From Candidatus Omnitrophota bacterium (GTDB lineage Bacteria; Omnitrophota; Gorgyraeia; Gygaellales; Profunditerraquicolaceae), in contig JBAZKL010000001.1 in NCBI GenBank assembly GCA_041650835.1, positions 299,931 to 363,930 on the forward strand: a DNA stretch of 64,000 nucleotides, written 5' to 3'. Positions 24,207 through 25,754 of the stretch are shown in pieces (the first letter of the stretch is position 1; every line of letters begins with the position of its first letter). A model generated the notes under the pieces. It saw nothing but the letters and a program-made list of their open reading frames with translations. It was not told the origin of the DNA and searched no databases. The translations under genes and the position numbers were made by a program.

Positions 24207-25754
24207 CTATTTGCCTTTGTAACGCAGCGCCAGCATCGTGATATCATCCGATTGCGGCGCCCCGTCGGTGAAAACCCGTATTTCTTCCCGGATCTTCCCG
24301 ATAATATCTTTTATCCCCTCATCCTTATATCTGGTCAGATGCTCTTTAAGCCTGGCCTCAGAGAACATCTGTTGAGTCCGGTTCATCGCCTCGGTAACGC
24401 CGTCAGTATAAAGGAAGATCATGCCTCCGGGCTTAAGCGTAAGCTCCCGCTGTTCGCATTTGCTGTTTTCCATTACTCCGACCACAAACCCGGAGAGCAC
24501 ACTGACGTAATCAAAACAACCCCGGTAATCGCAAACGAGCGGCGGGTTATGCCCGGCATTGCAAAATTTCAATTCCCCCGTATCAATGTCGAGAATAACG
24601 CAGAATACCGTAACGAACTGGCAGGTCTGATTATCAGGAGAGATTATATTATTCACGCGGTTCAATATCTCATTAGTAGGCAAACCGCGCTTGGCCTCAT
24701 TTTTTATCAGTGTCTTGGTAATAGCCATAAAGAGCGCCGCGGGGACACCCTTGCCGGAGACATCCCCGATCACAAAACACAGCCTCCTGTCATCGACAAA
24801 AAAGAAATCATAAAAATCACCGCCTACTTCCTTAGCCGGGTCCATCATGGCGAAGATCTCGAACTCTTTCCTCTCGGGGAAAACGCTCGGCAGCATGCTG
24901 GCCTGGATCTCCTGGGCAATGCGCAATTCGCTTTCAATACGTTCCCTGGCCTCTGTCTCCGTCTTTAAATTCTCAATAAAACGCTTGATGCTCATCTGGA
25001 TCAATTCAATAGCCAGCGCGGGGTCCTGGCCGAAAAGTTTTATGACTTCATCCCTGCCCATGGTATATGTCTCAACATCCTCCTCGCACACCGCGGAGGC
25101 GATCCTTTTCTTAAAAGGGGAAAAGATCCCCATTTCCCCGATCACTTCACCGTCCTTAATGATCTTGTTGAGCTCCACTAAGCGTATAGCGCCCTTTTTT
25201 ATATAGAACATCCTGTCGGCCTTATCCTGCGCCTTGAAAATAACCTCTCCTTTTTTAAAGAGCTCTTGTTTCATAAAAGCGACCGGCCAGCGGAAACAAG
25301 AAACGCACTCCTCAACAACCGTTTCTTTTTTAACCGGCTCACAGCATTTTATACCCTTGGTTTTCACAAGCGTCAGGATATTACGCTCTTTGTCCCTCTT
25401 ATATCTGACCTCATCCATGATCTTACGTATCATAAATATCCCCAAGCCGCCGACCTTGCGTTCTTCGATGGGCGCTAAGATATCAGGTTCAGGCAGCGAT
25501 AGCGGGTCAAAGGGGATACCGGAATCAATGATCTCTATTTCCATGCAAGCCTCTTTGTTACTGATCACTATTTCCAGATCACCGCTGCCGGCCGGATAGG
25601 CGTATTTAATGACATTGACTAAAGCCTCTTCAGATGCCAGCTGAATTTTATTGATATGCTCGGGGCCAAAGCCCTGGCGGGAAGACGCTTCCCTGATAAA
25701 GGAAAACATCTTATCCAGATTTTCCAGTTTTGCCTGAATGGTCAAACGTTCCAT
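24207..25754 (-). CDS. Fusion protein: RsbW/SpoIIAB-like serine kinase (HATPase_c_2) - cyclic-nucleotide-binding domain - SpoIIE/PP2C phosphatase
   Basis: N-terminus LASEEALVNVIKYAY...IEIIDSGIPFDP (anti-sigma kinase). Middle FKKGEVIFKAQDKADRMFYIKKGAIRL...GEMGIF (cNMP). C-terminus GGDFYDFFFVDDRRLCFVIGDVSGKGVPAALFM...YTDGVTEA (PP2C). Confidence 0.75.
   Translation of the reverse strand: MERLTIQAKLENLDKMFSFIREASSRQGFGPEHINKIQLASEEALVNVIKYAYPAGSGDLEIVISNKEACMEIEIIDSGIPFDPLSLPEPDILAPIEERKVGGLGIFMIRKIMDEVRYKRDKERNILTLVKTKGIKCCEPVKKETVVEECVSCFRWPVAFMKQELFKKGEVIFKAQDKADRMFYIKKGAIRLVELNKIIKDGEVIGEMGIFSPFKKRIASAVCEEDVETYTMGRDEVIKLFGQDPALAIELIQMSIKRFIENLKTETEARERIESELRIAQEIQASMLPSVFPERKEFEIFAMMDPAKEVGGDFYDFFFVDDRRLCFVIGDVSGKGVPAALFMAITKTLIKNEAKRGLPTNEILNRVNNIISPDNQTCQFVTVFCVILDIDTGELKFCNAGHNPPLVCDYRGCFDYVSVLSGFVVGVMENSKCEQRELTLKPGGMIFLYTDGVTEAMNRTQQMFSEARLKEHLTRYKDEGIKDIIGKIREEIRVFTDGAPQSDDITMLALRYKGK

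What the first reader, a model, noticed from the sequence alone, without database searches (positions are those of the whole stretch)
24207..25754. Single polypeptide combining anti-sigma-type Ser kinase, cyclic-nucleotide-binding domain and PP2C phosphatase
Domain order is HATPase_c_2 (RsbW/SpoIIAB-like), then a cNMP-binding domain (FKKGEVIFKAQDKADRMFYIKKGAIRL...GEMGIF), then a SpoIIE/PP2C phosphatase. The kinase and phosphatase that normally oppose each other on a STAS substrate are fused, with a cAMP/cGMP sensor between them. This predicts a cyclic-nucleotide-toggled bifunctional writer/eraser for the adjacent STAS proteins. A CHASE2 adenylate cyclase lies 16 kb away at 5678-7918, a possible second-messenger source.
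Basis: partly seen in the sequence, partly recalled or inferred. Interest (0 to 1): 0.6.

Follow-up and report, generated by a model that had tools for sequence, protein, structure and literature searches.

The report
cNMP-sensing kinase–phosphatase for STAS proteins
One gene in an uncultured Omnitrophota bacterium really does fuse an RsbW-type serine kinase, a cyclic-nucleotide-binding domain and an RsbU-type phosphatase next to its STAS substrate, making it a cyclic-nucleotide-sensing, so far uncharacterised version of known fused partner-switch regulators such as Vibrio SypE.

Summary
ORF 24207-25754 (-) encodes 515 aa. Its domains are HATPase_c_2 (6-131), cNMP_binding (166-243) and SpoIIE/PP2C (321-512), all above Pfam thresholds. 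Kinase N/G1/G2 boxes, the cNMP phosphate-binding Glu/Arg and the PP2C metal-binding Asp residues are invariant in 69 full-length homologs.

A STAS gene with the SpoIIAA-Ser58-equivalent serine lies 6 nt upstream. A second STAS gene overlaps the start of glgX by one base.

The fusion idea is not new. SypE (kinase-REC-PP2C) and HsbR/CrsR (REC-PP2C-kinase) are characterised. What differs is the cNMP sensor in place of REC.

The cNMP-PP2C pair is a fixed cassette found in many architectures. The kinase is N-terminal, C-terminal or a separate gene, and here it is joined by a disordered, variable linker. I therefore favour a tethered, probably constitutive kinase opposed by a cNMP-gated phosphatase, not a sensor that toggles both enzymes.

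The output is unknown. No sigma factor gene was found among the window ORFs scanned. In this clade the system always sits in an epimerase-like/STAS/GlgX/STAS operon.

The CHASE2 cyclase is real and adenylate-cyclase-like, but the link to it is only circumstantial.

Verdict: new variant of a known kind, moderate interest.

The parts
24207..25754 (-). Whole gene: 515-aa kinase / cNMP-binding / PP2C protein
   Evidence: ORF; Pfam; 68 other full-length homologs
25362..25739 (-). RsbW/SpoIIAB-type GHKL Ser kinase domain (residues 6-131). N-box E43/N47, G1 D77/G79 and G2 G102-G105 are invariant.
   Evidence: PF13581 at 5.4e-27; aligns to RsbW 6m36; invariance; Foldseek to RsbW, TMt 0.86-0.89
25284..25361 (-). 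Flexible kinase-to-cNMP linker (residues 132-157), not conserved; 17-47 aa long in homologs
   Evidence: pLDDT below 50 for residues 136-153; consensus all 'x'; length range. Corresponds to the gene boundary in the split relatives L005, L007 and L009.
25026..25259 (-). Cyclic-nucleotide-binding beta-barrel (residues 166-243)
   Evidence: PF00027 at 2e-13; aligns to the cNMP-binding domains of solved Crp/Fnr-family regulators 7ets and 4cyd
25092..25139 (-). Phosphate-binding cassette G206-E207-M-G ... R217-I218-A-S-A221. Glu and Arg are invariant. Residue 218 is Ile here but Thr in 64 of 69 homologs.
24876..25025 (-). Helical connector from the cNMP C-helix to the PP2C domain (residues 244-293), highly conserved (R258, E261, N262, E266, E271, S275-A280, I283, Q284)
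   Evidence: Predicted helices 245-266 and 272-287; invariant columns. Matches the coiled-coil linker described for RsbU-type phosphatases (PMC12143880).
24219..24794 (-). SpoIIE/RsbU-type PPM phosphatase domain (residues 321-512). D313, D331 (GDVSGKG), D451-G452 and D503-D504 are invariant.
   Evidence: PF07228 at 3.6e-50; aligns to RssB 3es2, Rv1364c 3ke6 and SpoIIE 5mqh; invariance
25761..26081 (-). STAS-B, 106 aa, predicted substrate. Ser57 (codon 25911-25913) aligns with the phospho-serine Ser58 of SpoIIAA.
   Evidence: PF01740 and TIGR00377; alignment to SpoIIAA 1auz; YISSAGLR invariant in 12 of 12 STAS proteins; 6-nt gap to the kinase gene
28245..28622 (-). STAS-A (probably starts at the ATG at 28586, giving 113 aa), second predicted substrate or output protein. 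Its stop codon overlaps the glgX start codon by 1 nt.
   Evidence: the same 1-nt overlap is seen in L001 and L086
26113..28245 (-). Glycogen debranching enzyme GlgX, encoded between the two STAS genes
   Evidence: TIGR02100 equivalog, 716 bits against a cutoff of 641; position conserved in all clade A loci
28606..30426 (-). GlcNAc-2-epimerase-like (AGE superfamily) protein of 606 aa, first gene of the conserved cluster
   Evidence: PF07221 at 1.6e-16; no NCBIfam name; conserved
23625..24188 (-). DJ-1/PfpI protein, directly downstream (18-nt gap), conserved neighbour. A terminator-like hairpin follows at 23593-23614.
42656..44566 (-). dCache-HAMP-SpoIIE phosphatase. Its linker plus PP2C region is 55% identical to that of the three-domain protein. 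Candidate second input phosphatase.
   Evidence: homologs sit beside or inside the cluster in L005 and L009
5678..7918 (-). CHASE2 plus class III nucleotidyl cyclase, adenylate-cyclase-like. Possible but unlinked cAMP source.
   Evidence: Pfam; best solved match is CyaB 3r5g; Lys/Thr specificity pair as in CyaB, versus Glu/Gly in the guanylate cyclase Cya2 2w01

Best explanation
The gene encodes the enzymatic core of a partner-switching-type phospho-switch that acts on small STAS proteins. Shown from sequence: the N-terminal RsbW-like domain has every ATP-binding and catalytic signature. The C-terminal RsbU/SpoIIE-type PP2C has every metal-binding Asp. The middle domain has a canonical cNMP phosphate-binding cassette. 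A STAS gene carrying the SpoIIAA-Ser58-equivalent serine always lies immediately upstream. Inferred mechanism: the kinase domain phosphorylates Ser57 of STAS-B, and probably the equivalent Ser of STAS-A. It does so more or less constitutively, held near its partner by a flexible tether. The cNMP domain is rigidly coupled to the PP2C through a conserved helical connector. When it binds a cyclic nucleotide (cAMP is the most plausible), the connector changes conformation or dimerisation and switches the phosphatase on or off. The second-messenger level therefore sets the phosphorylated fraction of STAS. The direction of the switch (activation or inhibition) cannot be told from sequence. The output is also inferred. 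Unphosphorylated STAS binds a partner, which may be the kinase domain itself (releasing whatever it sequesters) or a non-sigma target. In this clade the system is embedded in a conserved operon: AGE-epimerase-like, STAS-A, GlgX, STAS-B, this gene, DJ-1. No sigma factor gene was found among the window ORFs scanned, so a post-translational output on alpha-glucan metabolism is the leading candidate.
For: Domains are above curated cutoffs. Invariant in 69 homologs of 48-90% identity: E43/N47, D77/G79, G102-G105, G206-E207, R217, D313, D331, D451-G452 and D503-D504. The STAS serine aligns to SpoIIAA Ser58 and lies in an invariant YISSAGLR motif. The STAS plus three-domain gene pair is conserved in both subfamilies although all other neighbours differ. 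Coupling of cNMP to PP2C rather than to the kinase rests on three points. (a) The cNMP-PP2C cassette, with its Gly-Glu and Arg signature intact, recurs alone and behind REC, dCache-HAMP, CHASE5-HAMP, HAMP, 5TMR-LYT or a second cNMP domain. It also occurs with the kinase at the C-terminus. (b) The kinase is a separate upstream gene in L005, L007 and L009, and split forms are interspersed with fused forms in a tree of clade A. (c) In the AlphaFold model (mean pLDDT 83) the kinase-to-cNMP linker is disordered. That linker is 17-47 aa long with no conservation. The cNMP-to-PP2C connection is two helices rich in invariant residues. Published work shows that RsbU-type PPM phosphatases are activated through such coiled-coil linkers from exchangeable N-terminal sensor domains (PMC12143880). 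SypE provides experimental precedent for an N-terminal kinase and C-terminal PP2C acting on an operon-encoded STAS protein with a non-transcriptional output (PMC3610818). A partner-switch-like module that directly regulates a polysaccharide enzyme has also been reported (bioRxiv 10.64898/2026.04.08.717354).
Against: No biochemistry exists for any family member. The window protein and its 90% relative have Ile218 where 64 of 69 homologs have Thr, at a ligand-contacting position of the phosphate-binding cassette, so this copy might bind nucleotide weakly. CRP/FNR-type domains can bind ligands other than cNMPs. In SypE the central domain governs which activity dominates, so reciprocal control of the kinase cannot be excluded. 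Only a monomer was modelled, pTM is 0.60, and inter-domain geometry is uncertain. Promoter and terminator matches are no more frequent than in shuffled sequence, so the operon boundaries rest only on short gaps and conserved gene order. The output target is unidentified.
Confidence: 0.6

Rival explanations
1. SypE-like reciprocal toggle. Ligand binding to the central cNMP domain switches the polypeptide between a kinase-dominant and a phosphatase-dominant state, regulating both enzymes allosterically.
For: The domain order is the same as SypE (kinase, sensor, PP2C). In SypE the state of the central REC domain determines which activity prevails. The fused form is retained across both subfamilies, and all clade B members examined are fused.
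Against: The kinase is a separate gene in close relatives and C-terminal in others, while cNMP-PP2C stays intact. The kinase-to-cNMP linker is disordered, variable in length and unconserved. This makes a conserved allosteric path to the kinase unlikely.
Confidence: 0.2
2. The cNMP-like domain does not sense cAMP or cGMP. It binds another small molecule, or serves only as a dimerisation and relay module between upstream sensors and the PP2C.
For: The same cassette sits downstream of dCache-HAMP, CHASE5-HAMP and REC modules, which already supply a signal. CRP/FNR-family domains are known to accept other ligands (my own knowledge). The window protein carries the T218I change.
Against: The Gly-Glu and Arg residues that contact the ribose and the cyclic phosphate are invariant in all 69 homologs and in all 19 proteins of other architectures examined. 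The cassette resembles that of the solved Crp/Fnr-family regulator 4cyd, GELSIFDPG-PRTSSAV, which I recognise as the cAMP-binding regulator GlxR. A class III adenylate-cyclase-like enzyme is encoded in the same window.
Confidence: 0.15
3. Canonical sigma-factor partner switch. The kinase domain is primarily an anti-sigma factor holding a sigma factor encoded elsewhere in the genome. The glycogen and DJ-1 genes are regulon members or bystanders rather than direct targets.
For: This is the ancestral function of RsbW and SpoIIAB. HsbR and CrsR kinase domains bind RpoS. In clade B an ECF sigma factor gene is a conserved near neighbour.
Against: No sigma factor gene was found among the window ORFs scanned or in the clade A loci. 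The clade B sigma factor is ECF-type and sits with a PrsW protease, which fits regulated proteolysis rather than RsbW control. Non-sigma outputs are documented for SypA, HsbA and All4160.
Confidence: 0.25

Closest known systems
SypE / SypA of Vibrio fischeri (PMC3610818, PMC10120452)
   Same: One polypeptide with an N-terminal HPK-like Ser kinase, a central regulatory domain and a C-terminal PP2C phosphatase. It acts on a STAS protein encoded in the same locus. The locus concerns polysaccharide metabolism and the output is not at the level of transcription.
   Different: The central domain is a phospho-accepting REC domain fed by a histidine-kinase relay. Here it is a cyclic-nucleotide-binding domain. 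No sequence comparison with SypE was made, so this is an architectural analogue and common descent of the fusion is not shown. Relatives here show the kinase as a detachable module.
HsbR/HsbA (Pseudomonas aeruginosa) and CrsR/CrsA (Shewanella oneidensis) (PMC6482189)
   Same: Kinase/anti-sigma and PP2C activities are fused and control the phosphorylation state of a STAS antagonist. Sensor-PP2C coupling is direct.
   Different: The order is REC-PP2C-kinase, the sensor is REC, and the kinase domain binds RpoS. In my survey of other phyla the PP2C-kinase order, or PP2C followed by an adjacent kinase gene, is the common form. The kinase-first order with a cNMP sensor is rare.
Bacillus subtilis RsbU/RsbP - RsbV - RsbW and SpoIIE - SpoIIAA - SpoIIAB partner switches
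   Same: The same three protein families and the same phospho-serine are involved. A constitutive kinase is opposed by a signal-gated PPM phosphatase whose N-terminal sensor acts through a helical linker (PMC12143880).
   Different: The components are separate proteins, the output is a sigma factor (sigma-B or sigma-F) encoded in the operon, and the sensors are the RsbT-binding domain, PAS or membrane domains, not cNMP.
Mycobacterium tuberculosis Rv1364c (PDB 3ke6)
   Same: A multidomain protein containing RsbU-like PP2C and RsbW-like kinase domains. The PP2C is one of the best sequence and structure matches.
   Different: The architecture is PAS-PP2C-kinase-STAS, with the substrate also fused. 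There is no cNMP domain.
Myxobacterial PP2C proteins with a C-terminal cNMP domain (PMC2887360)
   Same: A PP2C-superfamily phosphatase is combined with a cNMP-binding domain, predicted to be nucleotide-regulated.
   Different: Those are eukaryote-like PP2C (not SpoIIE/RsbU-type) with the cNMP domain C-terminal. They have no kinase and no STAS context.

Membership tests
RsbW/SpoIIAB-type GHKL serine kinase (HATPase_c_2) | Match to PF13581 above the gathering score | tested here: met
   94.7 bits against a cutoff of 27.4, residues 6-131. NCBIfam RsbW models hit at 48-50 bits, below their equivalog cutoffs, so this is not an RsbW ortholog.
RsbW/SpoIIAB-type GHKL serine kinase (HATPase_c_2) | N-box (E-x-x-x-N), G1 (D-x-G) and G2 (G-x-G) ATP-binding motifs | tested here: met
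   E43/N47, D77/G79 and G102-G103-L-G105 are invariant in 69 of 69 homologs. N47 corresponds to the Asn whose mutation (N52A) inactivates SypE.
RsbW/SpoIIAB-type GHKL serine kinase (HATPase_c_2) | Phosphorylates the conserved Ser of a STAS partner; binds a sigma factor | not testable with these tools
   Needs biochemistry. No sigma factor gene was found among the window ORFs scanned.
CAP/CRP-type cyclic-nucleotide-binding domain (PF00027) | Match to PF00027 above the gathering score | tested here: met
   50.6 bits against a cutoff of 27.5; aligns to the cNMP-binding domains of solved Crp/Fnr regulators, PKA-R and HCN
CAP/CRP-type cyclic-nucleotide-binding domain (PF00027) | Phosphate-binding cassette: Gly-Glu (ribose 2'-OH) and Arg (cyclic phosphate) | tested here: met
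   G206-E207 and R217 are invariant in 69 of 69 homologs. They are also retained in 19 of 19 cNMP-PP2C proteins of other architectures.
CAP/CRP-type cyclic-nucleotide-binding domain (PF00027) | Small or hydroxyl residue (Thr/Ser/Ala) directly after the Arg | tested here: inconclusive
   The family has Thr in 64 of 69. The window protein and P0001 have Ile, and three others have Met. The effect on binding is unknown.
CAP/CRP-type cyclic-nucleotide-binding domain (PF00027) | Actual binding of cAMP or cGMP | not testable with these tools
   Requires calorimetry, thermal shift or a crystal structure
SpoIIE/RsbU-type PPM phosphatase (PF07228) | Match to PF07228 and the metal-coordinating Asp residues | tested here: met
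   171 bits against a cutoff of 25. D313, D331, D451 and D503/D504 are invariant. Structure matches to RssB, Rv1364c, SiaA, SpoIIE and RsbX have TMt 0.5-0.83.
SpoIIE/RsbU-type PPM phosphatase (PF07228) | N-terminal sensor joined through a helical (coiled-coil) linker | tested here: inconclusive
   The monomer model predicts helices 245-266 and 272-287 with pLDDT 58-79, and the segment is highly conserved. Dimeric coiled-coil formation was not modelled.
Partner-switching system (RsbV/RsbW/RsbU type) | STAS antagonist with phosphorylatable Ser, a GHKL kinase and a PPM phosphatase encoded together | tested here: met
   STAS-B is 6 nt upstream, Ser57 aligns to SpoIIAA Ser58, and the arrangement is conserved in all loci examined
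Partner-switching system (RsbV/RsbW/RsbU type) | Cognate sigma factor as the regulated target | tested here: not met
   No sigma factor gene is present in the cluster, among the other window ORFs scanned, or in the clade A loci. A distal target cannot be excluded.
SypE-type bifunctional regulator | N-terminal Ser kinase plus C-terminal PP2C in one chain, with a locus-encoded STAS substrate | tested here: met
SypE-type bifunctional regulator | Central REC (receiver) domain controlled by a phosphorelay | tested here: not met
   The central domain is cNMP_binding and there is no Response_reg hit. The protein resembles SypE in layout but is not a SypE family member.
HsbR/CrsR-type regulator | REC-PP2C-kinase domain order | tested here: not met
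   The order here is kinase-cNMP-PP2C. PP2C-kinase order is seen in other phyla, and cNMP-PP2C-kinase in P0121 and P0122.

The most novel reading that the evidence does not exclude
A bacterial cascade from cAMP to protein phosphorylation to glycogen breakdown. The cNMP-gated phosphatase and tethered kinase set the phosphorylation state of STAS-A and STAS-B. These STAS proteins then bind the debranching enzyme GlgX (and/or the AGE-epimerase-like protein) and control it directly. STAS-A overlaps the glgX start codon by one base, and the arrangement is conserved throughout this Omnitrophota clade. This would be a convergent analogue of the eukaryotic cAMP/PKA control of glycogen breakdown. It would also be the first link between cyclic-nucleotide signalling and partner switching.
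Probability: 0.12. Interest if true: 0.8.

Novelty: new variant of a known kind. Interest (0 to 1): 0.45.

Why it matters
Partner-switching modules are among the most widespread bacterial signalling devices. Known inputs are stressosome kinases, receiver, PAS, GAF and HAMP domains. In the literature searches I ran I found no described case where a cyclic nucleotide feeds an RsbU-type phosphatase and STAS switch.

This family would connect cAMP/cGMP signalling to Ser phosphorylation of STAS proteins. In bacteria cAMP is mostly thought of as acting through CRP-type transcription factors.

The naturally occurring fused, split and permuted versions offer a ready-made test of whether tethering the kinase matters.

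The conserved embedding next to glgX gives a concrete, testable candidate for a non-sigma output in an uncultured phylum whose regulation is essentially unknown.

The result also tempers the finding. The fusion of opposing enzymes is already well precedented.

Tried and rejected
1. Foldseek against AFDB50, intended to find the same architecture in UniProt with organism names: the library was unavailable. The PDB search gave only per-domain matches.

2. A regular-expression search for the phosphate-binding cassette in other architectures was too strict and found 5 of 19. I replaced it with an hmmalign-based alignment.

3. The literature hit linking 'cAMP' and partner switching in Nostoc was a false lead, because the term matched the author name Campbell.

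It cannot prove restriction to Omnitrophota. One end-truncated kinase-cNMP-PP2C copy is on a contig from a MAG labelled Acidobacteriota (L008), and I did not check its binning.

5. Promoter and terminator scans found no more sites than in shuffled sequence. The best promoter-like site (30614-30641) and the hairpin after DJ-1 (23593-23614) are only suggestive.

6. I considered that the fusion was a frameshift or assembly artefact. I rejected this because dozens of independent assemblies encode the same protein.

7. I considered stop-codon readthrough joining STAS-B to the kinase, since the two genes are in frame in the window. I rejected this because the gap is 7 and 14 nt in relatives.

8. I considered the CHASE2 cyclase as a dedicated partner. 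There is no genomic support: it lies outside the conserved cluster, beyond unrelated genes, in its own FecR/POTRA/porin cluster.
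Full report
**1. Observation**

The window has an uninterrupted 515-codon ORF at 24207-25754 on the minus strand.
- HATPase_c_2 at residues 6-131 (E 5.4e-27).
- cNMP_binding at residues 166-243 (E 2e-13, 50.6 bits against a gathering score of 27.5).
- SpoIIE at residues 321-512 (E 3.6e-50).

NCBIfam gives only sub-threshold hits to RsbW, SpoIIAB, RssB, SiaA, SpoIIE and CRP models. The protein therefore belongs to these superfamilies but is not an ortholog of any named protein.

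The gene immediately upstream (25761-26081, 6-nt gap) and another at 28245-28622 are single-domain STAS anti-sigma-antagonist proteins. ORF 5678-7918 is CHASE2 plus a class III cyclase domain.

**2. Not an artefact, and where it comes from**

A search of 5.8 billion protein clusters found a 90% identical protein and dozens of full-length three-domain proteins at 48-74% identity. Those with names are annotated as Candidatus Omnitrophota MAGs. The window is therefore from an Omnitrophota genome, and the fusion is reproducible across independent assemblies.

An exhaustive HMMER scan of 1.84 billion 50%-identity representatives found only two that match the query end to end (P0025 and P0076). These correspond to two subfamilies, which I call clade A (56-90% identity, including the window) and clade B (about 50%).

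I also scanned one genome per GTDB species and classified hits with my own domain HMMs. Kinase-cNMP-PP2C appeared only in an Omnitrophota locus (L006) and, truncated at the contig end, in a MAG labelled Acidobacteriota (L008). Split kinase plus cNMP-PP2C versions appeared in Omnitrophota (L007, L009).

**3. Are the catalytic and ligand-binding residues intact?**

I aligned 69 full-length homologs. The following are invariant:
- Kinase: E43 and N47 (N-box), D77 and G79 (G1), G102-G103-L104-G105 (G2).
- cNMP domain: G206-E207-M208-G209, R217 and A221 of the phosphate-binding cassette.
- PP2C: D313, D316, D331 (in GDVSGKG), D451-G452, D503-D504.

Residue-level alignments support these assignments: to RsbW (6m36) and SpoIIAB (1th8); to solved Crp/Fnr-family regulators (7ets, 4cyd); and to RssB, Rv1364c and SpoIIE.

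There is one caveat. Residue 218, directly after the cassette Arg, is Thr in 64 of 69 homologs but Ile in the window protein and its 90% relative.

**4. The substrate**

STAS-B Ser57 and the equivalent Ser of STAS-A align with Ser58 of B. subtilis SpoIIAA, which I know to be its phosphorylated residue. The motif YISSAGLR is identical in all 12 STAS proteins taken from the window and from seven related loci.

STAS-A and STAS-B are only 26% identical to each other. The single STAS of clade B is slightly closer to STAS-A (28-34%) than to STAS-B (23-24%).

**5. Genomic context**

In clade A (the window, L001/L002, L005, L007, L009, L086) the gene order is conserved: AGE-epimerase-like, STAS-A, GlgX, STAS-B, kinase/cNMP/PP2C, DJ-1/PfpI, cupin, DJ-1, small ORF, TPP enzyme, glyoxalase, and so on. 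Gaps are tiny or genes overlap. The STAS-A stop codon overlaps the glgX start by one base in the window, L001 and L086. GlgX passes the NCBIfam equivalog cutoff (716 against 641 bits).

In clade B only the STAS plus three-domain pair is retained. The neighbours there are a convergent PrsW protease, an ECF sigma factor and large unknown proteins.

No sigma factor gene was found among the window ORFs scanned. The conserved functional unit is therefore STAS plus this protein. The association with glycogen genes is clade-specific but strict within the clade.

**6. Which enzyme does the cNMP domain control?**

Three independent lines point to the phosphatase.

(a) Architecture survey. The cNMP-PP2C pair is a fixed cassette. 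It occurs alone and behind REC, dCache-HAMP, CHASE5-HAMP, HAMP, 5TMR-LYT or a second cNMP domain. It occurs with the kinase N-terminal (this family) or C-terminal (P0121, and P0122 from Lentisphaerae). The Gly-Glu and Arg-Thr cassette signature is kept in all of them.

(b) Fusion state. In L005, L007 and L009 the kinase is a separate roughly 133-aa gene directly upstream of a cNMP-PP2C gene. In a neighbour-joining tree of the cNMP-PP2C portion, 53 kinase-less forms are interspersed among fused forms inside clade A. The covalent link has therefore been made or broken repeatedly.

(c) Structure prediction. The AlphaFold2 model has mean pLDDT 83 and pTM 0.60, with three confident domains. Residues 136-153 between kinase and cNMP have pLDDT below 50. 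This linker is 17-47 aa long in homologs with no conserved residue. The cNMP barrel continues into helices 245-266 and 272-287, which lead into the PP2C and carry many invariant residues: R258, E261, N262, E266, E271, S275-A280, I283 and Q284.

This matches the published mechanism for RsbU-type PPM phosphatases. [quoted passage not shown]

That is the same logic as RsbU/RsbW or SpoIIE/SpoIIAB.

**7. Comparison with known systems**

Fusing the opposing kinase and phosphatase is not new:
- Vibrio fischeri SypE is an N-terminal Ser kinase, central REC and C-terminal PP2C. It controls the STAS protein SypA and hence polysaccharide and biofilm production post-transcriptionally (PMC3610818).
- HsbR and CrsR are REC-PP2C-kinase (PMC6482189).
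- Rv1364c is PAS-PP2C-kinase-STAS.

The window protein has the SypE layout with the REC domain replaced by a cNMP-binding domain. It fails the REC criterion, so it is an architectural analogue and not a SypE family member.

cNMP domains attached to PP2C-type phosphatases have been noted only for eukaryote-like PP2Cs of myxobacteria, where the cNMP domain is C-terminal (PMC2887360), and in a domain-architecture figure (PMC12088040). In my searches I found no description of a cNMP-gated RsbU-type phosphatase or partner switch. I rate it a new variant of a known kind.

**8. The proposed signal source**

The cyclase domain of ORF 5678-7918 is most similar to the adenylate cyclase CyaB (3r5g, 162 bits). 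It keeps the metal-binding Asp residues. It has Lys and Thr at the substrate-specifying positions, as CyaB does. The guanylate cyclase Cya2 has Glu and Gly there. It is probably cAMP-forming.

It lies outside the conserved cluster, beyond unrelated genes, and sits in its own FecR/POTRA/porin cluster. The link is circumstantial.

**9. A second input**

ORF 42656-44566 is a dCache-HAMP-SpoIIE phosphatase. Its linker plus PP2C region is 55% identical to residues 248-512 of the three-domain protein. Homologs sit beside the cluster in L005 and inside it in L009. It probably dephosphorylates the same STAS proteins in response to a periplasmic signal, as RsbU and RsbP both feed RsbV in Bacillus.

**10. 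Output**

The output is unknown. Candidates are:
- A distal sigma factor held by the kinase domain.
- Direct protein-protein control of GlgX or the epimerase-like enzyme by the STAS proteins.

Precedents for non-sigma outputs exist: SypA, HsbA-HsbD, and a recently reported STAS switch that directly regulates a polysaccharide biosynthetic enzyme in Anabaena. The conserved one-base overlap of STAS-A with glgX makes the second option attractive, but it is untested.

**11. Verdict**

It overstates novelty, since such fusions are known, and it probably mis-assigns the regulatory logic, since the sensor is coupled to the phosphatase and not to both enzymes.

Interest is moderate. This is a plausible first connection between cyclic-nucleotide signalling and partner switching, found in an uncultured phylum and with a concrete candidate output in glycogen metabolism.

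Noticed in passing
window 30725-41894 (-): A block of about 11 kb separates the ankyrin gene (42026-42640) from the epimerase/STAS/GlgX cluster. It holds a 261-aa unknown protein, a CBM96/PEP-CTERM protein, a 2613-aa TpsA-like exoprotein with a TPS domain, and a ShlB/POTRA TpsB transporter. In relatives L001 and L086 the ankyrin gene is followed directly by a divergent Rrf2 regulator and then the cluster. This looks like an insertion that displaced Rrf2, and GC falls to 0.425 at 30-32 kb.
   Followed up: partly
window 42656-44566 (-): A dCache-HAMP-SpoIIE phosphatase whose linker plus PP2C region is 55% identical to that of the three-domain protein. Homologs lie next to the cluster (L005) or inside it (L009). 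It is probably a second, periplasm-sensing input phosphatase for the same STAS proteins.
   Followed up: partly
window 25092-25139 (-), residue 218: The window protein and its 90% relative P0001 have Ile at the position after the phosphate-binding Arg. 64 of 69 homologs have Thr there and three have Met. This may weaken nucleotide affinity in this particular lineage.
   Followed up: partly
P0121, P0122 (Lentisphaerae OGV73955.1); P0123-P0134: The cNMP-PP2C cassette occurs in a permuted cNMP-PP2C-kinase form. It also occurs behind REC, dCache-HAMP, CHASE5-HAMP, HAMP, 5TMR-LYT and a second cNMP domain. None of these architectures appears to be characterised.
   Followed up: partly
L003, L004, L087, L088, L089 (clade B loci): The subfamily at about 50% identity is always flanked by a convergent PrsW-family protease, then an ECF sigma factor, a protein of 257 aa (L003, L004) or about 910-975 aa (L087-L089) without Pfam hits, and a large (roughly 745-990 aa) protein also without Pfam hits. 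This may be a regulated-proteolysis module. Its relation to the STAS switch is unknown.
   Followed up: no
window 25752-25763 (-): The STAS-B stop codon TAG is followed by 6 nt and then the ATG of the three-domain gene, so the two genes are in the same frame. The gap is 7 nt in L001 and 14 nt in L086, so this is probably coincidental and not programmed readthrough.
   Followed up: yes
window 59917-61272 (-): A single 451-aa ORF combines a Maf-like nucleotide pyrophosphatase domain (residues 3-186) with a Peptidase_M48 domain (residues 252-432). This combination looks unusual to me.
   Followed up: no
window 48595-55275 (-): A 2226-aa ORF with no Pfam match at E below 0.001.
   Followed up: no
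window 5678-11830 (-): The CHASE2 adenylate-cyclase-like gene sits in a co-directional cluster with a beta-barrel porin-like protein, a FecR-domain protein and a POTRA/ShlB-type outer-membrane protein. This suggests an envelope-linked signalling module of its own.
   Followed up: no
window 15579-24188 (-): Downstream of the switch the conserved cluster carries three DJ-1/PfpI paralogs, a glyoxalase-fold protein, an acetolactate-synthase-like TPP enzyme, a cupin, a four-repeat Lcl_C protein and an MFS transporter. This set is reminiscent of reactive-carbonyl or general stress functions and may be the physiological context of the switch.
   Followed up: no
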